Shown piece after piece: positions 17,962 to 53,576 of a DNA stretch of 54,363 nucleotides. The stretch is from a virus. Lineage: Duplodnaviria; Caudoviricetes. The stretch spans positions 1 to 54,363 of the IMG/VR virus record IMGVR_UViG_3300027784_000007; one strand, written 5' to 3'. A program made the position numbers and the translations under genes. Under the pieces are notes generated by a model. The model saw only the letters and a program-made list of their open reading frames with translations. It searched no databases and was not told the origin of the DNA. Numbering within the stretch: the stretch's first letter is position 1; each line of letters opens with the position of its first letter.

Positions 17962-18020
17962 TGGGCGGGCATGCCACGGCCCCGACGGCGGAGGACGTCG
18001 GGGCCGGGCGCGGGGGCAGG

Positions 18021-18179
18021 TCAGGCTGGGCGGACCTTGCCTCCCCCGCCGTTCTTGGCGTTGGTGACCTCAGCCTCGAGGCGGGTCGGATGCGACGACG
18101 TTTCGCCATCCGGCATCGACAGCTCGTAGCTCGAGGCCTGCGAGGCGAGCTTCTTCTTCTTGGCGCAACCGCAGCCCAT
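18021..18179 (-). CDS. Small basic MGCGC protein
   Basis: Not in ORF track: MGCGCAKKKKLASQASSYELSMPDGE..., 52 aa, TGATG overlap with the protease gene. Confidence 0.65.
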   Translation of the reverse strand: MGCGCAKKKKLASQASSYELSMPDGETSSHPTRLEAEVTNAKNGGGGKVRPA

Positions 18180-29727: not shown

Positions 29728-29760
29728 TGGTGTGGCCGGGGCCGGAGCCCCGGCGGTCGG

Positions 29761-30072
29761 TCACCGGGCGGCGAGGCGCTCGAGCTCGGCGATGCTGATG
29801 TTGCGGCCCGAGCAGGTCCAGGTGTTGCGGCGGTAGCGCAGGACCCAGCGGCCGTTCTTGATGCCGAACCGCAGGCACTCGTCGGGGGTCATGTTGTCGA
29901 ACCGGACCCGGCCGCCAGCGACCCAGTCCTCGTCGCGGTACTCGTGGGAGGTCCAGACGTCGAGGGAGACGCGGCCGGCGGCGAACGCGGCAGCGATGCG
30001 GCGGGCGGTGTCGGGGCGGAGGCTGGACAGGGCGTGGTCGGTGGCGGTGGCGAGCTCGGTGGCGGTGTTCAT
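29761..30072 (-). CDS. Hypothetical accessory protein
   Basis: MNTATELATAT, behind copy 7. Confidence 0.6.
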   Translation of the reverse strand: MNTATELATATDHALSSLRPDTARRIAAAFAAGRVSLDVWTSHEYRDEDWVAGGRVRFDNMTPDECLRFGIKNGRWVLRYRRNTWTCSGRNISIAELERLAAR

Positions 30073-32301: not shown

Positions 32302-32393
32302 CGGGAATCTTCCCGGGCAGAGCGAGGCCCCAGGCCGGGGGGGGGACCTGGGGCCTCGCGGGGGGCCGGAAGGGGACGACCGGCCGAGCTGCA

Positions 32394-32979: not shown

Positions 32980-33279
32980 TCAGTGCTGCCGGCAGCCGCA
33001 GTGGACGGGGCGGTGCAGGAACTCGGGAGCCCGGCAGCCGCAGTCGCCGGGGCAGTAGCAGCGGAGGGTCTTGCGCAGCTTCGGGGCCGGCAGGGTCGCG
33101 GCGAGGTCGATGGCCTGGCGCGACAGGGCCCGACGGGCGTCGGTGGTGCGCTCGGGGACGATGGCGTCGAGCTCGAGCTCGGCCTCGACCAGGGCGGCGC
33201 GGGCCTCGTCGAACCGGCCAGCGGCGACGAGCGCGTCCGAGCGGACGATGAGGGCGGCGGCGGTGTCGATGGCGGTCAT
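32980..33279 (-). CDS. Hypothetical protein with Cys-rich C-terminus
   Basis: 99 aa; CYCPGDCGC...HCGCRQH. Confidence 0.6.
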   Translation of the reverse strand: MTAIDTAAALIVRSDALVAAGRFDEARAALVEAELELDAIVPERTTDARRALSRQAIDLAATLPAPKLRKTLRCYCPGDCGCRAPEFLHRPVHCGCRQH

Positions 33280-33306
33280 GGCGGGTCCTCCCGGGCGGCT
33301 TGGCGG

Positions 33307-33531
33307 TCAGCGGATGACGTGGCAGACCTGGTCCTCGGTGACGCGGAGGTCACGGCGCAGGCCCTCGATGCGGACGACCATGCCGACGGCGCCGCGCCGG
33401 ACGCTGGTAAGCGGGGCCAGGGCGCCACCGCTGTTGACGATGCGGTCGCCGACCTGCAGGGACTCGCCACGGATGGCGATGACGCCCTTGGGGAGGCGGT
33501 CGAGCTCGCGTCGGGTCTGGATGGTGGTCAT
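33307..33531 (-). CDS. Hypothetical accessory protein
   Basis: 74 aa behind copy 11. Confidence 0.6.
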   Translation of the reverse strand: MTTIQTRRELDRLPKGVIAIRGESLQVGDRIVNSGGALAPLTSVRRGAVGMVVRIEGLRRDLRVTEDQVCHVIR

Positions 33532-33543
33532 TGCGGTCCCTCT

Positions 33544-33610
33544 CGGTTGGTGTAGTGCAACCGTACCATGCGAGGCCGACGGCGGTCAAGCGCCGCTGCA
33601 CTCTTTCTTT
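33544..33610 (-). promoter_or_regulatory. Repeat promoter element copy 11
   Basis: TTGACC..TGGTACGGTTGCACTACACCAACCG. Confidence 0.8.
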
Positions 33611-33624
33611 CCCCGGACACGACG

Positions 33625-33650
33625 AGGCCCCGACGCCGGAGCATCGGGGC
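33625..33650 (-). terminator. GC hairpin terminator-like element
   Basis: GGCCCCGATGC-TCCG-GCGTCGGGGCC followed by TCGTCGTGT. Confidence 0.5.
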
Positions 33651-33716
33651 CAGTCGCCGGTGTCCCTTCCCCGTGGACACCTGGCAGGACCGTAGCAGGA
33701 CGGCCGGCAGGTTCGC

Positions 33717-34058
33717 TCAGGACCAGACGACCTGCAGCCCGTCGGCGACCGCGGCCGCAGCGACCTCGTGCAGGCGCTCGAGGCGGGCCTGCAGGTAGCC
33801 AGGCTCGCGGCCGGCGTCGATGAACCGGCCGAACCCGAACTCCGAGGTGCCCTCCCACTCGTGCTCGGGCAGGCCCTCGTCGGTGGGGGCGACGGCCAGC
33901 GCCATCAGGACGCGGCCCAGGAACTCCTGAGCGTCCATCGACCCGCACCAGAGGTCGTCGCCCTCGATGCCCAGGGACTCGAGGACCGGCCGCGCGTTGC
34001 GGTTGGACATGTTGACGCCGTCGACGTTGCCGGCGGTGGTGGTGACGGTGACGGACAT
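33717..34058 (-). CDS. Hypothetical protein
   Basis: 113 aa, GGAGG RBS. Confidence 0.6.
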   Translation of the reverse strand: MSVTVTTTAGNVDGVNMSNRNARPVLESLGIEGDDLWCGSMDAQEFLGRVLMALAVAPTDEGLPEHEWEGTSEFGFGRFIDAGREPGYLQARLERLHEVAAAAVADGLQVVWS

Positions 34059-34101
34059 GGTGGCCTCCGGTTGGGGAGGGGCCCCGTGGGGCCCGGGACG
34101 G

Positions 34102-34338
34102 TCAGGCTGGGTCTTGGATGGCGACGACGGTGAGGCCGTTCTCGGTGGCGGTCTTGCGGATGGCGGCCTCGTTGGCGCTGAAGCGGACGACCAGGCCCGA
34201 GGTGGTGTAGGGGTTGCCGGTGCCGACGGCGGCCCAGGCGGCGTTCTTGTTCTTGGCGGCGATGGTGGCGCCGTCGTGGGCGACGGTGACCTCGCGGCCA
34301 GCGGTGCCGGCGGTGGCGGTGGCGGTGGCGGTGGTCAT
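34102..34338 (-). CDS. Hypothetical accessory protein
   Basis: MTTATATATA, behind copy 12. Confidence 0.6.
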   Translation of the reverse strand: MTTATATATAGTAGREVTVAHDGATIAAKNKNAAWAAVGTGNPYTTSGLVVRFSANEAAIRKTATENGLTVVAIQDPA

Positions 34339-34349
34339 CGTGGGCTCCT

Positions 34350-34416
34350 CCGGTTGGTGTAGTCACACCTTACCATGCGAGGGCCGAACCGGTCAAGGGG
34401 GACTGCACTCTTTCTT
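34350..34416 (-). promoter_or_regulatory. Repeat promoter element copy 12
   Basis: TTGACC..TGGTAAGGTGTGACTACACCAACCGG. Confidence 0.8.
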
Positions 34417-34449
34417 CGATGTAGGCGCGGCGGCGGGCGGCGAGCGTGG

Positions 34450-34683
34450 TCATCGGGGCAGCGACAGCGCGGCGGAGCGCTTGTCGGCGAGGTCGCTCCG
34501 GGACCAGCGCGAACCGGCCGGGCGCCAGCCGTAATAGGAGCCGCCGTGGCTCTCGAGCCGGACGTACTCGATGGCGCCCAGGACGCGGCCCGAGGGGTCG
34601 AGGATGCGTTCAGCGAGGATGGCGGTGGCGGTGGGGACACGCTCGGCAGCGAGGTCGGTGCCTGCGATGCGGATGGCGGTCAT
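34450..34683 (-). CDS. Hypothetical protein
   Basis: 77 aa, ATGA overlap. Confidence 0.55.
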   Translation of the reverse strand: MTAIRIAGTDLAAERVPTATAILAERILDPSGRVLGAIEYVRLESHGGSYYGWRPAGSRWSRSDLADKRSAALSLPR

Positions 34684-34772
34684 CGCGCGCGGTCGATGGC
34701 GAACAGGACGGGCAGCCCCAGCGTGCCGAACAGCACGAGCGTGGTGACGACCCAGAGGCCGATGGCGGTCAT
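34680..34772 (-). CDS. 30-aa single-TM peptide
   Basis: Not in ORF track: MTAIGLWVVTTLVLFGTLGLPVLFAIDRAR, CCGGGAGGACC RBS. Confidence 0.55.
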   Translation of the reverse strand: MTAIGLWVVTTLVLFGTLGLPVLFAIDRAR

Positions 34773-34819
34773 GGTGGTCCTCCCGGTGGTTGTGGCGGGG
34801 TTGTCGGCGGTTGTGCCGG

Positions 34820-35274
34820 CGGTTCTGCAGCTCCCGAGGTGCAGGGGCCAGGCCCTGAGCCCCTGAGCGGGGGAGGGGAGGCGAGCGGCCTCGGGAGCCG
34901 GGACATCAGCAGCCTCCGGGACACTCGGCGCGGCGGCCGGCGGTCCTGGTGAGCATCTGGGTTCAGGGGATTCGTCGCTGGTCGCGCGGCCGGCCTCATC
35001 GGTGACGGCGCACCCCTTACTAACTCGCTGCCTTCGCCCGTGTCCCGGTCCTTGCCCACCCCGAGGGGCTGCTGGTTGCCGGGAGCCGTATCGCCGTGGT
35101 CGTCGGCTCGAGGGCGGTGGCTAGCCGGCCCCGAACGTCCTCCCACCTTGCGAGGTCTTACGCGTTCCCAGACCCCCCGGTCATCGCCGGCCACCGCTCG
35201 CGGATGGTGCCACCGTCCGCGGTGCCGAGCGCCCTGGGGGCTGCTGAGGTCCCTATGCAGTTCTCAACCGGTAC
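34820..35274 (-). ncRNA. Candidate large structured non-coding RNA (~450 nt)
   Basis: Own promoter, no credible ORF, 30-bp long-range helix 35224-35253/34900-34929, 10-bp stem 34830-34839/34889-34898, and several internal hairpins. Confidence 0.65.
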
Positions 35275-35330
35275 AGGGGCACCGTACCATGGGCGCGCGA
35301 CGGCGGTCAAGTAATCCTGCACTATTCTTT
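35275..35330 (-). promoter_or_regulatory. Repeat promoter element copy 13 (drives candidate ncRNA)
   Basis: AGTGCAG..TTGACC..TGGTACGGTGCCCCT, without the ACACCAACC leader/RBS. Confidence 0.75.
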
Positions 35331-36665
35331 CGGCGGGAGGAACCGGGACCGGACCGCGGGCTCGCCAGTCTCGTCCTCGAGGCGGGCCACGATGACGTCG
35401 ACGTAGCCAGGGTCGAGCTCGATGCCGGCGCCGACCCGGCCGACCCGGGCTGCAGCGACCAGGGTCGAGCCCGAACCCGCGAACGGGTCGACGACGAGCT
35501 CGCCAGGCAGGGTGGAGTTCAGCAGGGACCTGCCGATGAGCTCGAGCGGCTTCATCGTCGGATGCAGGTCGGACCGGGCAGGACGGGGGATGGTCCACAC
35601 GGTCGTCTGCTTGCGGCCTCCCCACCAGGGGTGAGCGCCACCAGGCGTCCATCCGTACAGCAGCTCGGCGTGGTCGGGGGCGTAAGCGGCCACCTCGTCA
35701 GGGTCGGGGTCCACGCGCGGGTCAGCGCCGGGCGTGGCGCCGAACAGGACGGACTCGTGCTGGCCGTGGTAGTCGGACCGGGCGAGCACGAGCCGGTCCT
35801 TGGCCCAGACGATGGTCTGGCGCCACACCTTCAGCTCGGTGAGGACCAGGGCGAACGCGAGCAGCTCCGGCCCGGACGGGGAGGCGACGTACCACGGGGC
35901 GCCGGGCTTGGTCACGGCGAGCAGCGGCTCGAGGGCGTCGCGGAGCAGGGCGGCCAGGGCGTCGATGCCGAGGTCGTCGTTCGCAATCTTGCGGTGGCGG
36001 GAGCCCTCCTCGACGTAGTCGATGCCGTAGGGCGGGTCGGTCCAGACGGCGTCTACGGGCCCGTCGCCCACCGCGGCGCCCAGGGCCAGCGGGTCGGTCG
36101 CGTCGCCGCACACGACGCGGTGTGGGCCCACCTCCCACACGTCGCCGAGGGCGGCGGTCGGGACCTCGGGCAGCGGCGGCGGGTCGTCGTCCTCGAGGGA
36201 CACGGCCCGGGCGGCGTCGAGCTCGGACCGGAGCTCGTCGATGTCGCCACGGTCGTAGCCGACCCCTGCGAGGCCGTCGGGGGCGTTCTGCAGGTCGTCG
36301 AGCAGGGCCAGCAGGGCCTCGCCATCCCAGCCTCCGACCTCGGTGGTGCGGTTGAGGGCGATGAGGGCGGCCTCGGCCTCGAGGTCGTTCGCGGAGGACC
36401 AGCCGACGACGCGAGGCACGAGCCAGGCGCCGTTGTCGCCGGTGTCGATGCCATCTGGCGGAGGTTGCTCTGTGTCGCGGAGGTGCTGCAGGGCCTTGAG
36501 GCGGCCGTGGCCGGCGGCGAGCTTCCCGGTCCGCTCGTCGATGACGACGGGGTCGATGAACCCGAACCGGGCGAGCGACCCCGCGATGAGCTCCACGTCG
36601 TGGGCTTTGGGGTTGCGCTCGTGGGCCACGAGCTCGTCGAGGGGGGCGTAGGTCACGGACAGCAC
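35322..36665 (-). CDS. ParB-like N-terminus plus DNA (N6A/N4C) methyltransferase
   Basis: ERNPKAH..FGFIDPVVID..AGHGRL; TDPPYG, HPTMKP, DPFAGSGST, GIELDPGY. Confidence 0.9.
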   Translation of the reverse strand: MLSVTYAPLDELVAHERNPKAHDVELIAGSLARFGFIDPVVIDERTGKLAAGHGRLKALQHLRDTEQPPPDGIDTGDNGAWLVPRVVGWSSANDLEAEAALIALNRTTEVGGWDGEALLALLDDLQNAPDGLAGVGYDRGDIDELRSELDAARAVSLEDDDPPPLPEVPTAALGDVWEVGPHRVVCGDATDPLALGAAVGDGPVDAVWTDPPYGIDYVEEGSRHRKIANDDLGIDALAALLRDALEPLLAVTKPGAPWYVASPSGPELLAFALVLTELKVWRQTIVWAKDRLVLARSDYHGQHESVLFGATPGADPRVDPDPDEVAAYAPDHAELLYGWTPGGAHPWWGGRKQTTVWTIPRPARSDLHPTMKPLELIGRSLLNSTLPGELVVDPFAGSGSTLVAAARVGRVGAGIELDPGYVDVIVARLEDETGEPAVRSRFLPPKE

Positions 36666-36736
36666 GGCAGTCTCCGCGGTCGGGGAGGCAAGCGTAGGCC
36701 CCGGCGCGGAGCCGGGGCCAGGACGGGCGGCGGCGG

Positions 36737-37090
36737 TCAGCGGCCGGCCCAGTGCGCTTGGGCGTCGAGGGCGGCGCGGGCGGACTCGCGGCGGTCGACC
36801 TGGTGGTGGCCGGTCGCGACGTCCCATCCGTCGACGGGGAGGCGCATGACGCTGAGCAGGACCTCGAACGCGGCGTCGCGGCGGAACGTCTCGCCACGGG
36901 CGACGAGCATGCCGCGGAACGCGTCGCCGCCGGTGAGGGCGTGAGCGGACCAGGGGGCGCCGGCCTCGGGGCGGTCGACCCATCCGACCTTGACGCCGTC
37001 GAGGATGAGGTCGTAGCGGGACCAGTCCTCGAGGTGCTCGAGGCGGACGCGGCGGAACGTGAGCTGGCCGGTGGCGGTTGTGGTGGTCAT
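36737..37090 (-). CDS. Hypothetical protein
   Basis: MTTTTATGQLTF, CCGGGAGGACC RBS. Confidence 0.6.
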   Translation of the reverse strand: MTTTTATGQLTFRRVRLEHLEDWSRYDLILDGVKVGWVDRPEAGAPWSAHALTGGDAFRGMLVARGETFRRDAAFEVLLSVMRLPVDGWDVATGHHQVDRRESARAALDAQAHWAGR

Positions 37091-37124
37091 CGTGGTCCTC
37101 CCGGGACTGGTAGGGGCGGGGCGG

Positions 37125-37346
37125 TCAGCCGAGGTAGTCGAACAGGCGGTCGCGGAGCCGGGCGTAGTCGCCACCGAAGTAGAACCCGTCGTCGTCCATC
37201 GTGTCGGTGGTGAACGCATCCGCGGCGTCGAGCACGTCGTCGTCGGACAGGAACCCGTTGCGGGCCTCGAACGTGGCTGCGACCTGGTCCACGGCGAGGC
37301 GGAACCGGTCGTCGAAGCTGAGGGGGGCGGTGTCGGTGCGGGTCAT
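37125..37346 (-). CDS. Hypothetical acidic accessory protein
   Basis: MTRTDTAPL, behind copy 14. Confidence 0.6.
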   Translation of the reverse strand: MTRTDTAPLSFDDRFRLAVDQVAATFEARNGFLSDDDVLDAADAFTTDTMDDDGFYFGGDYARLRDRLFDYLG

Positions 37347-37357
37347 CGTGAGCTCCT

Positions 37358-37423
37358 CCGGTTGGTGTAGCACCACCGTACCATCGGCGGGCCCGGCCGG
37401 TCAAGGGGTTCTGCACCTTTCTT
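37358..37423 (-). promoter_or_regulatory. Repeat promoter element copy 14
   Basis: TTGACC..TGGTACGGTGGTGCTACACCAACCGG. Confidence 0.8.
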
Positions 37424-37439
37424 CCGGCGAGGCGGGCGA

Positions 37440-37925
37440 TGCCGAGCTGTGGGGAGCGTTGGCCGGTTGTGGCCGGGGTTCTCGAGGGTTCTCGAGGTGT
37501 GGGCGCCAGCGCCGCGGGAGGACGCGCCGAGCTCGAGGCGGCCCGGGAAGTTGGCCGTTGTTGGCCGGTTCTCGCGCAGTTCTCGGGGAGTTGCCGGGAG
37601 TTGGCGAGGTGTGGGGAAGTTGCCGAGCGATGCCCAGCGATGGCCGGTTGTGGGCGACGTTGGCGGGTTGTGGCCGGGGTTGCCAGAGGTTCCGCGGCGA
37701 TGCCCGAGGCGGGGCGAGGACAGCGAGGGCGGGCCAGTAGTTGGCGGCATCTCGCGGTTGTTGGCGGGTTCTCAGGAAGTTGCCGAGGGTTGCGCAGAGG
37801 TGGCCGGAGGTGGGGAGGTGTGGCCGGAGGTGGCGGGCTGTGCCGCGCGTTCGGGAGCTGTGGCCGGCGGTGGCGGGTTGTGGGCAGCGTTGGCCGGTTG
37901 TGGGCGGGGTTGGCCGCCGTTCCAG
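37440..37925. repeat. Degenerate decamer tandem array (about TGGCCGGKTG)
   Basis: e.g. tggccggagg tggggaggtg tggccggagg tggcgggctg ... tggccggttg tgggcggggt; strong G/T strand skew. Confidence 0.7.
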
Positions 37926-38161
37926 AGCATCGGCGGCATCTCGCCGCGGAGCTCCTCGAGGACCAGGCCCTTCGTCATGCCGTCGAGGACGGCCGAGGCG
38001 TGGCTGTGGCAGAGGTCGCTGAACCGGCGGACGCACAGGGCGCGGATGAGCCAGCGGGACATCTCGGCCGGTTCGATGCCGGCGCGCTCGAGGCGGGCAG
38101 CAACCCTGGCGGCGACGCCCGGCTCGGCAGGGCGTGGGTCGCGGCAGGTCGGGTGGCACAC
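37772..38161 (-). CDS. Hypothetical protein whose C-terminus runs into the decamer array
   Basis: Protein-like first half (AARLERAGIEPAEMSRWLIRAL), low-complexity tail. Confidence 0.35.
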   Translation of the reverse strand: MCHPTCRDPRPAEPGVAARVAARLERAGIEPAEMSRWLIRALCVRRFSDLCHSHASAVLDGMTKGLVLEELRGEMPPMLWNGGQPRPQPANAAHNPPPPATAPERAAQPATSGHTSPPPATSAQPSATS

Positions 38162-38163
38162 GG

Positions 38164-38325
38164 TCAGCGGGCGCCGAGGCGTGCGAGGCAGGTCGGGCAC
38201 CAGGACCGGCCTGGGGCGCAGGGACGGCTGCAGCCGCTGGTGACGCAACCGGCCTTGACGTGCATGCCGGTGTGGGCCAGCGGGGGGCGCTGCAGGCCGA
38301 CGTCGAGCTCGGGCAGCTCGCTCAC
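38164..38325 (-). CDS. Small zinc-finger-like protein
   Basis: Not in ORF track: MSELPELDV...CVTSGCSRPCAPGRSWCPTC; GTGA overlap. Confidence 0.45.
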   Translation of the reverse strand: MSELPELDVGLQRPPLAHTGMHVKAGCVTSGCSRPCAPGRSWCPTCLARLGAR

Positions 38326-38567
38326 TCGGGCACCAGCAGGCCGAGGGCGACGGCAGCGGCGACGGATGACACGGTGACCTCCCAGCGGACCAGGTCGCCG
38401 TTGTCGTCACGGACGGACACGGGCCCGAACGTGAGGTCCGTGGACCAGGACCCCTGCTGAATCGACAGGGGCGCCACGGCCCGGTAGGCGGCCCCGTCGA
38501 CGCTGAGGGCGGGCCCCAGGGCGTCCACCAGGGGCAGGGACGGTACGGGCAGCGTGACGGTCCTCAT
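38322..38567 (-). CDS. Hypothetical protein
   Basis: MRTVTLPVP, ATGA overlap. Confidence 0.5.
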   Translation of the reverse strand: MRTVTLPVPSLPLVDALGPALSVDGAAYRAVAPLSIQQGSWSTDLTFGPVSVRDDNGDLVRWEVTVSSVAAAVALGLLVPE

Positions 38568-39682: not shown

Positions 39683-40414
39683 TCAGCGGCGGTTGAGGGC
39701 GAGGGGGGCGCCGACCATGAGGGCGCCTAGACCCATGAGGGCGAGCAGCCAGGCGGGTGCTCCCGTGACGGGGAGGGTGCCGCCGGTGCCGGCCTCCACG
39801 GAGGTGGGCAGGGGGATGGGGTCGTCGTCGGGCTCGGCGCGTTCGATGACCTGGGGGGTGCCGAGCTCTACCTCGGGCTCGTCCTCGGGTTCGGGCGTCG
39901 GGTCCGGGTCAGGGGTCGGGTCAGGGTCGGGGGAGGGCTCCGGGTCGGGCGTCGGCTCCGGGTCGGGCGTCGGGTCGGGGTCGGGCGAGGGCTCCGGCTC
40001 GGGCTCCGGCTCGGGTTCAGGCTCCGGCTCGGGCTCTGGCTCCGGTTCGGGTTCCGGCTCCGGCTCAGGTTCGGGCTCGGGCTCGGGCTCCGGCTCGGGG
40101 GAGGGGTAGATGACGTAGTAGCTGACCCCGGGGACGTTGTCGTTGCCGACACGGATGCCGGCGTCCTCCACGTAGTCGGACAGGGACCGGACCCCATCGG
40201 CGGTGAAGATGCCGGTGGCGAACGGGCCAGCCTTGACGCACGCCTCGGTGCCGGCCTCGAGGACCAGGTCGTCGTTGGCGCCCTCGACCTTGGTGACGTC
40301 CGAGGATTGGTGGTCGGGGCAGTGCTCGTTGGCGGCGAGGGCGGGCACGGCGAGCGTGAGCGCGAACGCTGCGATGACAGCGACGACCAGGGGCCGTCGT
40401 CGGGTCGGTTTCAT
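39683..40414 (-). CDS. Secreted LPXTG cell-wall-anchored protein with PE/PD stalk
   Basis: Signal peptide, (EP)n linker, LPVTG plus TM plus RR. Confidence 0.8.
39887..40103 (-). repeat. Coding hexamer repeat (Pro-Glu/Pro-Asp)
   Basis: GAGCCS/GACCCS tandem units. Confidence 0.85.
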
Positions 40415-49058: not shown

Positions 49059-49336
49059 GGGTGAACCTCGGCGTGGATGAGCTCCGACACGGTGAACCCG
49101 GCCACCGCGAGGCCGATGTTCGCCTTGGTGTTGACGTGGACGATGGCCTCGAGCAGAGCGCCGCAGACGATGAGCACGTCGAGGTCGGACAGGTCGAGGC
49201 CGCGGTCGCGGCAGGCAGCCTCGAACTGGTCAGCGTGCCCCATCGCGCGCCAGTCCGGCAGGTCGCCGGCATTCTGCAGAGCGACGTGGGCGGCGGCGAG
49301 GCGGACGGCAGCCTCGACACGGGGCTTGTTGGTCAC
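49055..49336 (-). CDS. Hypothetical protein
   Basis: 93 aa behind a diverged repeat promoter. Confidence 0.55.
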   Translation of the reverse strand: MTNKPRVEAAVRLAAAHVALQNAGDLPDWRAMGHADQFEAACRDRGLDLSDLDVLIVCGALLEAIVHVNTKANIGLAVAGFTVSELIHAEVHP

Positions 49337-49348
49337 GGTGGTCCTCCC

Positions 49349-49403
49349 GGTGGTGTAGCCGCACCCTACGCGAGCGCGGCGGGGCGGTCAAGGGGGGCTG
49401 TTC
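49349..49403 (-). promoter_or_regulatory. Diverged repeat promoter
   Basis: CAGCCCCCC-TTGACC-N17-TAGGGT..CTACACC. Confidence 0.65.
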
Positions 49404-51247: not shown

Positions 51248-52207
51248 CTAGCTCGGCTCGCCCTCGCCTCGTAGCTGCGTTTCGGCTTCGGCGATGGTCG
51301 AGGCCACCAGGTCCAGCCAGGCGTGCAGGTCCTCGAGCTCGAGGGCCTCGACCTCGCTGCGGCCGGGGAACCGGGACCTCCACTCCCCCACCAGGAACTC
51401 GCGCAGCCCGAGGCGGTGCGCGTCGACCTGCATGTTGGCCCAGCGCTCGAGCAGGGCGAGCCGCTCCTGCTCGTCGCCGGTGCCGAGCTGCGCCAGCGCC
51501 GGGGTCCCGAGGGCTTCGCCGGACCGGGCAGCGAGGGCCTCGAGCGAGGCCTGGCTGTTGGCGATGGCGAGCTGGAACTCGGTGACCTCGTGGACCTTCC
51601 CACGGCCGTCGCGGACGGTGCGGTCCACCATCGTGAGCCGGGCAGGGACAGCGGCCTGCGAGGCGCCGACCATGGTGAGCGCGGCCACGACCCCCTTCAG
51701 CGACGCGGCGGTGCCCCAGGCGTTCGAGCGGAGCTCCCAGATACCGAACCGCTCCACGTCGAGCTCGATGAGGATGGGCATGGTGCTGTGAGGCCGACAG
51801 GACCGCTCAGCGCCCTTCGCCATCTCCTCGGCGCACAGGCACGGCCGGTCGGTCGGGCGGCCGTCCAGGGTCGACATGGTGACCCCGTCGCATCGGCGGA
51901 CGCACTCGGCAGCGCGCCAGAGCTCGAGGGCCTGCCGGAACCCGGCCGGGATGGTGAGCACCTCCGCGGACCGGACATCGGACACCACGTCGTACTCCCA
52001 GGTGAGGGAATCGGACACGATGTCGCCACCGAACTTGACCTGGACGGCGTTCGCCACCTCCGGGTCGTCGGTGTGGAACACCAGCGTCTCGGACCGGGTC
52101 GGCCGCGAGTACGGCTTCCCTTGGCGCGAGGTGGCCTCGACCCCGCGGCCGCAGGTCACGGTGCCGAGGCGAGGGATGCGAGGGCGCAGGACGTCGTTGT
52201 CAATCAT
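51248..52207 (-). CDS. Gp3-like recombination protein (recombination directionality factor-like family)
   Basis: RLGTVTCG...RP, RRCDG, CLC...CRP, GIWELRSNAW motifs. Confidence 0.7.
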   Translation of the reverse strand: MIDNDVLRPRIPRLGTVTCGRGVEATSRQGKPYSRPTRSETLVFHTDDPEVANAVQVKFGGDIVSDSLTWEYDVVSDVRSAEVLTIPAGFRQALELWRAAECVRRCDGVTMSTLDGRPTDRPCLCAEEMAKGAERSCRPHSTMPILIELDVERFGIWELRSNAWGTAASLKGVVAALTMVGASQAAVPARLTMVDRTVRDGRGKVHEVTEFQLAIANSQASLEALAARSGEALGTPALAQLGTGDEQERLALLERWANMQVDAHRLGLREFLVGEWRSRFPGRSEVEALELEDLHAWLDLVASTIAEAETQLRGEGEPS

Positions 52208-52460
52208 CGGGTGGTCCTCCCGGGGCGAGCAGGGCGTGGTAGTCGAAGTACATGAGCAGACGCCGGACAGCGGCATGGCGGCGCGACACGCCACGGGCGA
52301 CCTCGACGCCGGAACGGGTGACAGCAAGCCAGCCGTCAGCGACCTTCATCACGAACCCGACAGGTCGCCCCTCCACGTTGACCACGAACGTGGCCTCGGC
52401 GGACAGGGCGACCTGGGCGATGCCGGACGAGGTGAGCGCGCGGGCCTCTGCGGCGCGCAT
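52200..52460 (-). CDS. Hypothetical protein
   Basis: 86 aa. Confidence 0.5.
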   Translation of the reverse strand: MRAAEARALTSSGIAQVALSAEATFVVNVEGRPVGFVMKVADGWLAVTRSGVEVARGVSRRHAAVRRLLMYFDYHALLAPGGPPDD

Positions 52461-52706: not shown

Positions 52707-52730
52707 GACGGCTCCAGTCGGTCGGGGGCG

Positions 52731-52775
52731 GTGTCGTACACCTGCACCTTACCACGACCGGGCCGGTCCAGTCCA
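52731..52775 (-). promoter_or_regulatory. Promoter TGGACT-N18-TAAGGT with palindromes
   Basis: GACCGGGCCGGTC in the spacer and GTGTNNNACAC near +1. Confidence 0.5.
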
Positions 52776-52778
52776 GGC

Positions 52779-53576
52779 CTACTGAACGCGGAGGGCTGCG
52801 CGCCAGGTCTTGTCGCCCACGACGTAGTCGGGCACGGACGGGCTCGAGGGCCGGCCGGTGGCGAACCGGGCCTGGACGGTGCCAACCGCGGCCTTGGTCA
52901 GCGGGCCACCGATGCCGTCGAGGTTCCCGCTGTAGGCCCCGAGGGCGGCGAGCAGGCCCTGCAGAGCACGGACGTTGTTGTTCGGCTTCGCGCGGGAGCC
53001 GACCCACGTCGACGAGCTCCGGGTCACGCGGCTGAAGTTCAGGACGGGCAGCACGTCGAGCACCCCCTCGGGCGATGGCGGCGGGACAGGGACGGTCACG
53101 GACGACCCGAGCACCTCGCGGATGGTCGCCAGCGTGAGCTTCGACGCCGCAGCAGGCGTGAGCTCGAGGTGGATGTGGTCGTAGTGCGGATGGACGCCGC
53201 GGTAGGGCTCGCCGGCGGGGTCACGAACCGCGGACCAGTGGGTTCGGTTGAAGATGACGTACTGCACGCCGAGGCGGGACGGATGGTTGGCGACGCGGCG
53301 CAGGAACTCGTAGGCCACGGCATGGCCGGCGGCGTCAACAGGGACCGCGAGGTCGGTCGCGCGGCCGCAGGCGTGCATCGACAGCGACGACGCACCACGG
53401 ACCTCGCGGCATGCGTAGATGCCGAGCGACCGGGCCAGCGGCTCGAACTCCTCGAGCCAGTAGGCCATCATCGCGGCCGCTCCTGGGGCGGGACCACCGG
53501 AGCAGGCGGTGCATCGCTGCCACGACGGCATCTGCTCGAACCGGACCTGGGTGGACACGCCGGGGAACGTCCTCAC
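52779..53576 (-). CDS. Endolysin: M15-like Zn peptidase plus peptidoglycan-binding domain
   Basis: SMHACGRATD...HYDHIHLE; VRALQGLL..DGIGGPLTKAAV..Q..DYVVGDKTW. Confidence 0.85.
   Translation of the reverse strand: MRTFPGVSTQVRFEQMPSWQRCTACSGGPAPGAAAMMAYWLEEFEPLARSLGIYACREVRGASSLSMHACGRATDLAVPVDAAGHAVAYEFLRRVANHPSRLGVQYVIFNRTHWSAVRDPAGEPYRGVHPHYDHIHLELTPAAASKLTLATIREVLGSSVTVPVPPPSPEGVLDVLPVLNFSRVTRSSSTWVGSRAKPNNNVRALQGLLAALGAYSGNLDGIGGPLTKAAVGTVQARFATGRPSSPSVPDYVVGDKTWRAALRVQ

What the first reader, a model, noticed from the sequence alone, without database searches (positions are those of the whole stretch)
34820..35274. Candidate novel ~450-nt structured phage ncRNA under its own strong promoter
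Seen: repeat-promoter copy 13 lacks the usual leader/RBS and fires into ~500 nt without a credible gene, in an otherwise gene-dense genome. The minus-strand transcript can form: (i) an outer stem CGGUU/AACCG plus CUGCA/UGCAG with a bulged GAGAA; (ii) a 30-bp long-range helix (35224-35253 with 34900-34929; 25 Watson-Crick pairs, 2 G-U, 3 mismatches) enclosing ~295 nt; (iii) internal stems CGCGGA/UCCGCG, GCGGUGGC/GCCACCGC, GGGGUCU/AGACCUC (its loop GAACG could pseudoknot with CGUUC), UCCCGG/CCGGGA and AGGGG/CCCCU; (iv) a 3' domain closed by a perfect 10-bp stem. The 5' end UUGAGAACUGCAUAG resembles the actinobacterial rrn boxA-type sequence. I do not recognise tRNA, tmRNA, RNase P or intron cores. 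Inference: a large ncRNA in the manner of GOLLD/ROOL or Ms1/6S-like RNAs, perhaps an RNA polymerase/Nus-factor sponge or anti-defence RNA.
Basis: partly seen in the sequence, partly recalled or inferred. Interest (0 to 1): 0.88.

Follow-up and report, generated by a model that had tools for sequence, protein, structure and literature searches.

The report
Orphan non-coding leader RNA in phage
One of fifteen near-identical phage promoters fires into about 480 bases of non-coding sequence, closed by an unusually long hairpin-like duplex, before reaching two small genes; it is probably a leader RNA, but no relatives could be fetched to prove that it is a folded, functional RNA.

Summary
Promoter copy 13 (35269-35330, minus strand) is the only one of 15 copies not followed by a ribosome-binding site and ATG within about 20 nt. 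A profile of the standard unit splits here. Positions 3-68 match 35334-35269. The RBS part reappears only as a non-significant match at 34787-34767. The roughly 480 nt between are non-coding by composition, homology and public gene calls.

The 30-bp long-range helix has exactly the claimed counts and is the strongest inverted repeat in the 54-kb genome. The interior does not fold better than shuffled sequence (z +0.84 and +1.77). The helix shows no strand bias. Rfam gives nothing. No homologous DNA could be obtained, so covariation is untested.

Best reading (0.45): a transcribed non-coding leader with a long duplex and a 3' hairpin, upstream of a 30-aa membrane peptide and a 77-aa protein. 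It resembles the ~500-nt Pleft non-coding RNA of mycobacteriophages L5 and D29. A GOLLD/ROOL-like ornate RNA is not supported. A neutral small insertion remains a serious rival.

The parts
35269..35330 (-). Promoter repeat copy 13. It has -35 TTGACC (35305-35310), an 18-nt spacer, an extended -10 TGGTACGGT (35281-35289) and the 5' part of the standard leader (CTGTACCG). The methylase stop codon TAG (35322-35324) lies inside its upstream element.
   Evidence: (D1, 15 copies). The unit profile matches positions 3-68 only, E 1.9e-12.
34788..35268 (-). Non-coding stretch of about 480 nt that separates the promoter half of a standard unit from an RBS-ATG context.
   Evidence: the RBS-side match alone is not significant, E 29. 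Composition. No protein homologues. No ORF of the gap appears in public gene calls.
35254..35274 (-). Predicted 5' tail of the transcript with GAGAACUGCAUAG. Its ends pair with 34820-34828 (outer stem of 5 + 4 bp with a bulged GAGAA).
   Evidence: GAGAAC-type motifs recur in the array at 37425-37925. The transcription start is inferred from promoter geometry, not measured.
35224..35253 (-). 5' arm of the long-range duplex.
   Evidence: 25 WC + 2 GU + 3 mismatches with 34900-34929. Pair probabilities 0.96-1.0. 0 of 300 shuffles reach its score.
34900..34929 (-). 3' arm of the long-range duplex.
   Evidence: (I1, longest inverted repeat in the window).
35185..35221 (-). Hairpin CGCGGA/UCCGCG (35199-35221) and the 13-nt strand 35185-35197, which extends the duplex by pairing with 34930-34942.
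   Evidence: Mean best-partner probability is 0.83 for the 5' arm region and 0.92 for the 3' arm region.
34930..34942 (-). Partner strand of the 13-bp extension of the duplex. In an ungapped DNA alignment it can instead continue against 35210-35223.
34943..35184 (-). Interior of about 240 nt. It is G-rich for this strand and has no excess secondary structure.
   Evidence: z +0.84 and +1.77 on the minus strand, +0.99 and +0.83 on the plus strand. Best-partner probability 0.34. GC skew differs from coding sequence. G-tract density is 11 per 250 nt against a mean of 3.6.
34829..34899 (-). 3' hairpin domain with a stem of 10 WC pairs plus 1 G-U pair. No U tract follows.
   Evidence: dG -42.0, z -2.34 (5 of 200 shuffles as good) on the minus strand and -2.04 on the plus strand. 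No intrinsic terminator is called on the minus strand. Three natural C>U variants (34844, 34851, 34865) all fall at positions with pairing probability 0.00.
34793..34828 (-). C/A-rich spacer with four 10-12-nt units (CAGAACC, CACAACC, GACAACC, CACAACC) of the motif family seen in the array at 37425-37925.
34680..34786 (-). RBS GGGAGG (34781-34786) and a 30-aa single-helix membrane peptide gene (ATG at 34772). The RBS is predicted mostly unpaired.
   Evidence: The exact protein is called in public assemblies, with a V8A variant.
34450..34683 (-). 77-aa protein gene overlapping the peptide gene by ATGA. It is the last gene before promoter copy 12 (34355-34416).
   Evidence: Three clusters of relatives at 95, 87 and 67% identity with a protein-like conservation pattern.

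Best explanation
The stretch is a non-coding 5' leader RNA. Host RNA polymerase, probably with the principal sigma factor, starts at promoter copy 13. It transcribes about 480 nt of non-coding sequence and continues into a 30-aa membrane-peptide gene and a 77-aa gene. These have no promoter of their own.

In the RNA, a 27-pair duplex (extendable by 13 pairs) clamps a 240-nt G-rich, poorly structured loop. A 71-nt hairpin follows. A C/A-rich single-stranded spacer then presents an accessible ribosome-binding site.

I infer that the duplex and hairpin act in cis. They would be a target for a double-strand-specific RNase (RNase III type), or a partial stop or stabiliser like the U-less hairpins that end other cassettes of this phage. 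This would set how much and when the downstream small membrane protein is made. It would possibly also leave a stable leader fragment, as the Pleft leader of mycobacteriophages L5 and D29 does.

Shown here: promoter homology, the split unit, the non-coding nature, the significance of the duplex, the absence of a U-tract terminator, and an RBS predicted to be accessible.

Inferred: transcription itself, processing, and any effect on expression.
For: - Promoter family and the exceptional copy 13.
- Non-coding status. GC1/2/3 is 0.77/0.69/0.70 against GC3 0.87-1.00 in the ORFs I selected as genes with a GC3 >0.86 filter. There are 0 hits for ORF 34769-35194 among 322 candidates and 0 among 1472 for the read-through of the peptide frame. 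Of 9 ORFs looked up exactly, only the 30-aa and 77-aa ones are in public gene calls; none of the 6 in or over the gap is, and the methylase as delimited here is not either.
- Duplex.
- Whole-region z is -3.0 on the transcribed strand against -1.2 on the other.
- No promoter-like site on either strand inside the element, in a crude regex scan. No U-tract terminator.
- Hairpins with 8-15-bp perfect stems sit just upstream of 4 of the 15 promoter copies (17900, 29667, 32240, 33548), so this phage uses U-less hairpins at cassette ends.
- The element is kept at about 99% identity in soda- and salt-lake metagenomes. Contigs of three coded studies were laid; 13 listed runs from 7 studies hold at least part of it.
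- In run X3, 3 differences are listed in 502 nt, against 11 at about 260 third codon positions of the adjacent methylase (Fisher p 0.0008). All three are C>U at unpaired positions.
- Precedent: a ~500-bp transcribed region without ORFs over about 30 codons behind the early promoter Pleft gives an abundant stable non-coding RNA in L5, D29 and StarStuff (PMC5712189, passages read).
Against: - There is no RNA evidence at all.
- No homologous DNA was obtained, so there is no covariation test.
- The interior folds worse than most shuffles.
- The duplex has the same 25 WC / 2 GU / 3 mismatch count on both strands, so it may be a DNA-level repeat.
- A whole-region z of -3.0 is only modestly beyond the genome background, where 3 of 18 windows are at or below -2.2.
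- The conservation argument is weak. The read-laying table hid 53 differences. If all 7 unlisted X3 differences fell in the element, p rises to 0.10. The adjoining 170 nt of coding sequence are equally invariant (1 difference), so a recent recombination block would explain it. The X6/X8 pieces give p 0.13.
- The predicted accessible RBS argues against direct translational control.
Confidence: 0.45

Rival explanations
1. The stretch is a neutral insertion or remnant. A small non-autonomous mobile element (MITE-like, or like the roughly 440-bp ultra-small mobile elements of mycobacteriophages, recalled from memory) or another piece of foreign DNA landed inside a promoter-leader unit. The inverted repeats are relics of its ends. 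Transcription through it is incidental and tolerated.
For: - The unit is split exactly between its promoter/5'-leader part and an RBS context.
- The outer-stem-bounded length is 451 bp and the whole stretch about 480 bp.
- There are nested inverted repeats without strand bias.
- The interior has no excess RNA structure.
- GC skew is unlike the phage's own sense strand.
- Cassettes are exchanged between promoter copies in natural populations: a joint 34418->35281 occurs in one X3 contig.
Against: - No target-site duplication at either candidate pair of ends (read).
- The long arms are not terminal: 15 nt and about 105 nt from the ends of the stretch.
- There is a single copy in the 54-kb record.
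- No match in phage records (where a 701-nt query spanning the element was used), plasmid records or IMG/VR.
- Divergence is low relative to neighbouring synonymous sites (with the caveats given).
Confidence: 0.25
2. One reading: a stand-alone, trans-acting non-coding RNA of about 445 nt. It would run from about 35274 to the 3' hairpin at about 34829 and act on host or phage factors, for example as a decoy for RNA polymerase or Nus factors, or against defence. Read-through would serve the downstream genes.
For: - It has its own consensus promoter.
- It has a 3' hairpin with a stem like the U-less hairpins that close other cassettes.
- Its 5' end is paired, which would protect it.
- The large single-stranded G-rich loop could be a binding platform.
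- The 5' motif GAGAACUGCAUAG resembles, as I recall it, the NusA-binding BoxC RNA of the M. tuberculosis rrn leader. That NusA binds BoxC, with an AUA trinucleotide critical, is stated in PMC2724277 (passages).
Against: - No Rfam match.
- No relatives and no covariation.
- No evidence of termination at the hairpin, and the two downstream genes depend on this promoter.
- The interior lacks defined structure.
- The BoxC comparison rests on memory. The original papers are not held and the recalled motif was found in no mycobacterial paper of the library.
- GAGAAC also belongs to a DNA motif family repeated in this phage.
Confidence: 0.15
3. A DNA-level site. The two 30-44-bp arms, the second palindrome and the four C/A-rich units would be protein-binding or recombination sites: an operator pair or looping site, an invertible segment, an origin or an attachment site.
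For: - It is the strongest inverted repeat in the genome, with identical quality on both strands.
- The same motif family forms a 500-bp array of 10-bp units upstream of promoter copy 14.
Against: - No recombinase, invertase or integrase was found among the 20 early-region proteins scanned.
- All contigs that cross an arm in four runs have the window's orientation, and no strand-changing joint was listed. Contigs drop rare variants.
- There is no AT-rich stretch or iteron set inside the element.
- The position inside a transcribed leader fits an RNA element better.
Confidence: 0.08
4. A protein-coding gene that gene callers miss: ORF 34769-35194, or an N-terminal extension of the 30-aa peptide frame, which is open from 35120.
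For: - A 141-codon ORF exists and ends in ATGA with the next gene.
- The peptide frame is open for 116 codons upstream of its ATG.
Against: - GC3 is 0.70 and 0.69, against at least 0.87 in the ORFs selected as genes.
- The products are P/R-rich and of low complexity.
- No Pfam hit.
- No homologue among 5.8 billion proteins.
- Not called in any public assembly.
- No ATG, GTG or TTG in the peptide frame upstream of 34772.
- ATGA overlaps arise at every ATGACC start of this phage.
Confidence: 0.03

Closest known systems
Pleft leader non-coding RNA of Cluster A mycobacteriophages (L5, D29, StarStuff)
   Same: An actinobacteriophage, a strong early-type promoter, and about 500 transcribed bases without a credible gene ahead of the first protein genes. 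In those phages the RNA is abundant and stable and its function is unknown (PMC5712189, passages).
   Different: No sequence similarity: a 701-nt query spanning the element found nothing in 50,697 phage records. Here the promoter is one of 15 repeats rather than a unique early promoter. Expression and stability are untested. No long-range duplex was mentioned for the Pleft RNA in the passages I read.
RNase III processing stalks and leader duplexes (pre-rRNA stalks, T7 early mRNA sites, lambda N leader)
   Same: A near-perfect duplex of more than two helical turns, formed by distant segments of one transcript just behind a promoter and enclosing an RNA segment. This comparison rests on established knowledge, not on a call.
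   Different: No cleavage data. The enclosed segment is not a known stable RNA. The host and its RNase III are unknown.
GOLLD and ROOL large ornate RNAs
   Same: Phage- or prophage-associated, several hundred nucleotides, non-coding (PMC12286853 and PMC5737381, seen as search listings and abstract starts only).
   Different: No covariance-model match. No neighbouring tRNA genes. The interior has no excess structure. No family of relatives is available.
Ultra-small mobile elements and MITEs in phage genomes
   Same: Size of about 450-480 bp, inverted repeats, no functional gene, and a position in an intergenic leader. The size and features of the mycobacteriophage elements are recalled, not checked.
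   Different: No target duplication, arms not terminal, a single copy, and no similarity to any phage record.
Type I toxin mRNAs (hok, tisB and similar)
   Same: A tiny hydrophobic peptide gene (30 aa, one membrane helix, charged tail) behind a long leader whose 5' end pairs with a distant downstream segment. The properties of these systems come from established knowledge.
   Different: No antisense promoter was found in a crude scan of the element. The RBS is predicted open. The peptide gene is translationally linked (ATGA) to a conserved 77-aa gene. Toxicity is untested.

Membership tests
Any Rfam 15 family (including tRNA, tmRNA, RNase P, 6S, Ms1, group I/II introns, riboswitches, GOLLD, ROOL, HEARO) | A covariance-model match at or above the family's gathering score. 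| tested here: not met
   0 matches in the whole window at gathering thresholds. In E-value mode on 34650-35400 the best hit is 22.4 bits against a cut-off of 38, to an unrelated vertebrate UTR element. ARAGORN finds 0 genes.
GOLLD/ROOL-type large ornate RNA | Many conserved stems and pseudoknots supported by covariation across a family. | not testable with these tools
GOLLD/ROOL-type large ornate RNA | Folding of the body beyond what its composition gives. | tested here: not met
   Interior halves give z +0.84 and +1.77. Excess stability comes only from the long duplex and the 3' hairpin.
6S / Ms1-like RNA polymerase-binding RNA | A long irregular rod with a central open-promoter-like bubble, and a family model match. 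| tested here: not met
   No model match. The predicted shape is a clamp around a 240-nt loop, not a rod. The shape is a prediction only.
Intrinsic (U-tract) terminator at the 3' hairpin | A G+C-rich hairpin followed by a run of U. | tested here: not met
   No terminator-like site on the minus strand in 33000-38500. The hairpin is followed by GCAGAACCGCC.
rrn-type antitermination leader (boxA/boxC, Nus factors) | A match to the host's own boxA or boxC sequence, and NusB/E or NusA binding. | not testable with these tools
   The host is unknown and no actinobacterial genome handle could be obtained. The source papers are not held. The recalled motif was found in no mycobacterial paper of the library. 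The resemblance rests on memory only.
MITE or ultra-small mobile element | Terminal inverted repeats flanked by a target-site duplication. | tested here: not met
   The long arms lie 15 and about 105 nt inside the stretch. The outer 10-bp repeat has a 5-nt indel. No direct repeat flanks either pair of ends.
MITE or ultra-small mobile element | Several copies in one or in related genomes. | tested here: not met
   Single copy in the record. No match in phages, plasmids or IMG/VR. The host genome could not be searched.
Type I toxin-antitoxin locus | A small hydrophobic toxin ORF plus an antisense or divergent antitoxin RNA with its own promoter. | tested here: inconclusive
   A small hydrophobic ORF is present. 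No -35/-10-like pair lies on the plus strand inside the element (a crude regex). Toxicity is untested.
Pleft-type leader non-coding RNA of Cluster A mycobacteriophages | Sequence homology to the L5/D29 right-end region. | tested here: not met
   No blastn match, using a 701-nt query spanning the element, in the phage collection that should hold those genomes.
Pleft-type leader non-coding RNA of Cluster A mycobacteriophages | An abundant, stable transcript from a ~500-nt gene-free region behind a strong promoter. | not testable with these tools
   The architecture is met. No RNA run is listed for this sequence.

The most novel reading that the evidence does not exclude
The element mimics a pre-rRNA leader. 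A NusA-binding BoxC-like motif at the 5' end of the transcript is followed at once by a processing-stalk-like duplex, so the phage RNA would recruit or titrate the host's Nus-factor / RNase III machinery. It would act either to make transcription from this promoter termination-resistant or as a decoy. This would be a new class of phage RNA, so far seen in only one lineage of soda-lake actinophages.
Probability: 0.07. Interest if true: 0.8.

Novelty: new member of a known kind. Interest (0 to 1): 0.35.

Why it matters
If the leader is functional, it would be a second, unrelated case of an actinobacteriophage placing several hundred non-coding bases behind a strong promoter. The Pleft RNA of L5/D29 is abundant and toxic, and its function is still unexplained.

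This case has a simple, testable architecture: one long duplex, one hairpin and an open loop. It is also a natural experiment. Fourteen sister promoters carry a 20-nt leader, so the effect of the extra 480 nt can be measured directly by swapping leaders.

If it is only a tolerated insertion, it shows how repeated promoter cassettes in phages absorb foreign DNA. Either way the present evidence is from one lineage and is not strong.

Tried and rejected
Searches for homologues
- blastn of 34700-35400 against phages: no match.
- blastn of 34773-35274 against plasmids: no match.
- nhmmer and blastn against 80 loci downstream of methylase homologues, all at or below 39% identity: nothing.
- Strict promoter pattern in IMG/VR: 0 hits.
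- Loosened promoter pattern in IMG/VR: 37 contigs with one match each, which I take as chance.
- Strict promoter pattern in metagenome contigs: 2 hits, both about 53% GC and unrelated.
- Strict promoter pattern in GTDB genomes: 1 hit in a Mediterraneibacter MAG, which I take as chance.
- Capsid protein in IMG/VR: none.
- Two-arm pattern in IMG/VR: 0.
- Alignment of the 77-aa protein in IMG/VR: none.

Tools that gave no answer

Sequencing runs
- No RNA holder is listed.
- In read laying some bins had little cover in X6 and X8, and 53 differences were not shown. No conclusion is drawn from holes.

Ideas rejected
- Paralogue inside the phage: only RBS-context matches.
- Degenerate second promoter in 34790-34835: no profile hit.
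- Antisense promoter: none in a crude scan.
- tRNA or tmRNA: none.
- 16S rRNA in the record: none.
- G-quadruplex reading: one loose motif, and the fold is unchanged with G-quadruplexes allowed.
- Strand asymmetry of G-U pairs in the duplex: none.
- Microbacterium phage Terij, a distant capsid relative, shows no gap between annotated genes of more than about 250 nt in its first 50 kb. Its DNA was not searched for the promoter motif.

Literature
- The original NusA-BoxC papers are not held.
- Motif searches found no mycobacterial paper.
- Two further searches gave nothing relevant.
- Supplementary files were not consulted. Those of PMC5712189, with the alignment of the Pleft region, might bear on the comparison.
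Full report
**What the window is.** The window is a complete IMG/VR virus record of 54,363 bp, estimated 76% complete, with 71% G+C. Every ORF that passed my minus-strand composition filter lies on the minus strand. It encodes a large terminase, portal, major head protein and tape measure. Its capsid region is only 65-68% identical, over 18% of the query, to Microbacterium phages. It is therefore an uncultured actinobacteriophage without close cultured relatives. Near-identical DNA occurs in soda-lake, salt-lake and lake-water metagenomes. 13 listed runs from 7 studies hold at least part of the stretch, 5 of them half of the sampled words or more, and none is on record as RNA.

**The promoter family.** A 62-nt repeat occurs 15 times, always in the minus orientation (D1). 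Read on the minus strand it has four parts:
- an A-rich upstream element (AAGAAAGAGTGCAG);
- a -35 element TTGACC;
- an 18-nt spacer;
- an extended -10 TGGTA(C/T/A)GGT, followed by CTACACC.

In 14 of 15 copies a stereotyped leader with a ribosome-binding site follows, and an ATG lies 16-20 nt after the repeat. Copy 13 (35269-35330) is the exception. After CTGTACCG the sequence runs on for 497 nt before the next RBS-preceded ATG at 34772.

A profile built from the 14 standard units matches them over positions 3-91 (E 1e-18 to 1e-23). It matches copy 13 over positions 3-68 only (E 1.9e-12). The RBS-ATG part (positions 69-90) aligns at 34787-34767, but only at E 29. Such RBS contexts also precede promoter-less genes. 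So about 480 nt (35268 to about 34788) lie where the other units have nothing. Whether this arose by insertion into a unit cannot be proved. No degenerate second promoter is detectable before the 30-aa gene.

**Is it coding?** No.
- ORF 34769-35194 (141 aa) has GC1/2/3 of 0.77/0.69/0.70.
- The upstream extension of the 30-aa frame, open from 35120, has 0.72/0.77/0.69. It holds no ATG, GTG or TTG before 34772.
- The 66 ORFs that I selected by requiring GC3 >0.86 and GC2 <0.62 have GC3 0.87-1.00 and GC2 0.40-0.62. This threshold is my own.
- Plus-strand ORFs in the gap are no better.
- ORF 34769-35194 has no Pfam match and no homologue among about 5.8 billion proteins (0 of 322 candidates). Nor has the read-through of the peptide frame (0 of 1472).
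- In an exact look-up of 9 ORFs, only the 30-aa and 77-aa ones are in the public collection. None of the six ORFs in or across the gap is there, and neither is the methylase as I delimited it.
- The 77-aa protein has three clusters of relatives (95, 87 and 67% identity) with a protein-like conservation pattern. The peptide has a V8A variant. The two downstream genes are therefore real, and they have no promoter other than copy 13.

**The structure claims.** The minimum-free-energy fold of 35274-34773 is -260.9 kcal/mol. Shuffles average -240.2 +/- 6.9, giving z -3.0, with 1 of 100 shuffles as good.
- the outer stem;
- the 30-bp helix, with exactly 25 Watson-Crick pairs, 2 G-U pairs and 3 mismatches;
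- the CGCGGA/UCCGCG hairpin;
- a 3' hairpin closed by 10 Watson-Crick pairs plus one G-U pair.

The long helix has pair probabilities of 0.96-1.0. It is extended by a 13-bp helix (35185-35197 with 34930-34942). It is far beyond chance:
- With a simple RNA score it reaches 24.5, against 11.0 +/- 1.4 (maximum 15.5) in 300 dinucleotide shuffles.
- The next best of 215 half-overlapping windows of this genome scores 16.5.
- The repeat finder ranks it first of 129 inverted pairs within 600 nt.

**What is not beyond chance.**
- The two 150-nt halves of the interior fold no better than their shuffles (z +0.84 and +1.77; 158 and 197 of 200 shuffles are at least as stable). The same holds on the plus strand (+0.99 and +0.83).
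- The mean best-partner probability in the interior is 0.34, against 0.83-0.92 in the arms.
- All the excess stability comes from the long duplex and the 3' hairpin (z -2.34 on the minus strand, -2.04 on the plus strand).
- The whole-region z is also only a mild outlier. 18 other 502-nt windows of the same strand, sampled every 2.2 kb from 1000 to 38400 with 30 shuffles each, range from +1.0 to -2.54, and three are at or below -2.2.
- The plus strand of the region gives z -1.2. This slightly favours the transcribed strand.
- The duplex itself, however, has the same 25/2/3 count on both strands, because its two C-A mismatches become G-U on the other strand. The duplex therefore does not tell RNA from DNA.

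**Known families.** Rfam 15 gives no match at gathering thresholds in the whole window. In E-value mode it gives nothing meaningful (best 22.4 bits against a cut-off of 38). There are no tRNA or tmRNA genes. No U-tract terminator follows the element on the minus strand. No -35/-10-like pair lies inside it on either strand. The ribosome-binding site of the 30-aa gene sits in a C/A-rich stretch with low pairing probability.

Four of the 15 promoter copies are preceded by simple hairpins with 8-15-bp perfect G+C-rich stems and no U tract. This phage thus appears to end cassettes with such hairpins. The 11-pair stem at 34829-34899 resembles them, but it encloses 49 nt.

**Population data.** Contigs of four runs from three coded studies were laid on 34100-36100.
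- One X3 contig covers 34456-35324 with 23 differences. 16 are listed, and only three of these lie in the element (34844, 34851 and 34865, all C>U in the RNA). One more lies in the promoter (35279).
- All three element variants sit at positions with pairing probability 0.00 and leave the fold energy unchanged. The chance of that is about 0.04.
- In the adjacent methylase, 12 of the 13 listed variable positions are third codon positions, the signature of a gene under selection.
- In X3, 3 differences in 502 nt compare with 11 in about 260 third positions (p 0.0008).

This argument is weak for three reasons:
- The table hid 53 differences. If all 7 unlisted X3 differences fell in the element, p would be 0.10.
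- The adjoining 170 nt of coding sequence have only one difference, so the low divergence may reflect a recently exchanged block.
- The X6/X8 pieces give 2 differences in 456 nt against 20 in 1393 nt (p 0.13).

One X3 contig joins 34418 to 35281, that is, promoter copy 12 to copy 13. This suggests that cassettes are swapped by recombination between promoter repeats.

**Relatives.** I could not obtain any homologous DNA. All the searches are listed under Tried and rejected. Relatives do exist in public assemblies. Covariation, the decisive test, is therefore open.

**Interpretation.** The simplest account of all the facts is a non-coding 5' leader. It would be transcribed from a consensus principal-sigma-type promoter, clamped by a long duplex and followed by a hairpin, ahead of a tiny membrane-peptide gene and a conserved 77-aa gene.

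- By analogy with RNase III substrates (pre-rRNA stalks, T7 early mRNAs, the lambda N leader; established knowledge), a duplex of 27 pairs, or 40 with its extension, is a likely processing site.
- By analogy with this phage's own cassette-end hairpins, the 3' hairpin may stop or stabilise part of the transcripts.
- The closest described case is the ~500-nt gene-free region behind Pleft in mycobacteriophages L5, D29 and StarStuff. It yields an abundant, stable non-coding RNA of unknown function that is toxic to M. smegmatis (PMC5712189, passages read). It has no sequence similarity to this element.

I give this reading 0.45.

The main rival (0.25) is a tolerated insertion of a small foreign element. 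Its repeats would be relics. This would explain the structureless interior, the foreign GC skew and the strand-neutral duplex. It lacks target duplications, terminal arms and further copies.

**The boxA remark.** The 5' end reads GAGAACUGCAUAG. From memory, it resembles the short BoxC RNA of the M. tuberculosis rrn leader that NusA binds. A paper I read in passages confirms that NusA binds BoxC there and that an AUA trinucleotide is critical (PMC2724277). It does not give the sequence. The original papers are not held, and the recalled motif turned up in no relevant paper.

GAGAAC is also one variant of a motif family (GAGAAC, GCCAAC, CACAACC) that forms a 500-bp array of 10-bp units at 37425-37925. 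The same family appears four times at 34793-34828, between the hairpin and the RBS. The resemblance is thus a lead only. I keep it as the novel reading at 0.07.

**Verdict.** This is a real and unusual non-coding stretch behind a strong promoter, with one highly significant long-range duplex. It is not shown to be a large structured RNA. It is an orphan, with moderate interest.

Noticed in passing
window 37425-37925 (minus strand): A second non-coding stretch of about 500 bp, made of roughly 50 tandem 10-nt units (GGCCACAACC, GCCAACNNNN, GAGAACCC and similar). Base autocorrelation is 0.50 at lag 10 and 0.47 at lag 20, against about 0.3 elsewhere. There is no codon-position signal. The transcribed strand is strongly C-rich and G-poor. 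It lies directly upstream of promoter copy 14. CCACAACC occurs 9 times in the window against 1.4 expected. It may be a protein-binding array on one face of the helix, or a Rho-loading (rut-like) stretch.
   Followed up: partly
window 17900-41482 (15 sites), plus 49331-49403 and 52724-52787: A promoter-leader cassette repeated 15 times, with an upstream A-rich element, -35 TTGACC, an extended -10 TGGTANGGT, and a fixed 17-21-nt leader with RBS. Two weaker profile matches exist (E 8e-6 and 0.002). No other IMG/VR contig carries several copies of the core pattern.
   Followed up: partly
window 34418 / 35281 (run X3): One metagenome contig joins promoter copy 12 to copy 13, skipping the element and both small genes. 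The same run also holds the element at similar depth. This suggests cassette exchange by recombination between promoter repeats.
   Followed up: no
window 18000-18050, 29740-29790, 32309-32372, 33630-33685 (minus strand): Simple hairpins with 8-15-bp perfect G+C stems and no U tract sit just upstream of four promoter copies. They are probably cassette-end terminators or 3' stabilisers.
   Followed up: partly
window 34450-34683 (minus strand): The 77-aa protein has no Pfam match. A language-model look-alike search gave a PRC-barrel cluster as third hit (score 0.92, 172 shared features, the family on 34% of members). This is a lead only.
   Followed up: no
window 39683-40414 (minus strand): This gene carries a long run of 12/18-nt tandem repeats (14 copies, 39861-40130). 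They encode an acidic Pro/Glu/Ser-Gly-type low-complexity segment, with a weak sub-threshold match to a procyclin-like repeat family.
   Followed up: no
window 35322-36983 (minus strand): An N6/N4 DNA methylase gene whose stop codon lies inside the upstream element of promoter copy 13. 12 of the 13 listed natural variants are at third codon positions. The ORF as delimited from the first ATG is not in the public protein collection, so its true start probably lies further in.
   Followed up: no
window 51248-52327 (minus strand): A Gp3-like recombination-directionality-factor-like protein (E 9.7e-17). No integrase was found among the 20 early-region proteins scanned. The record is incomplete.
   Followed up: no
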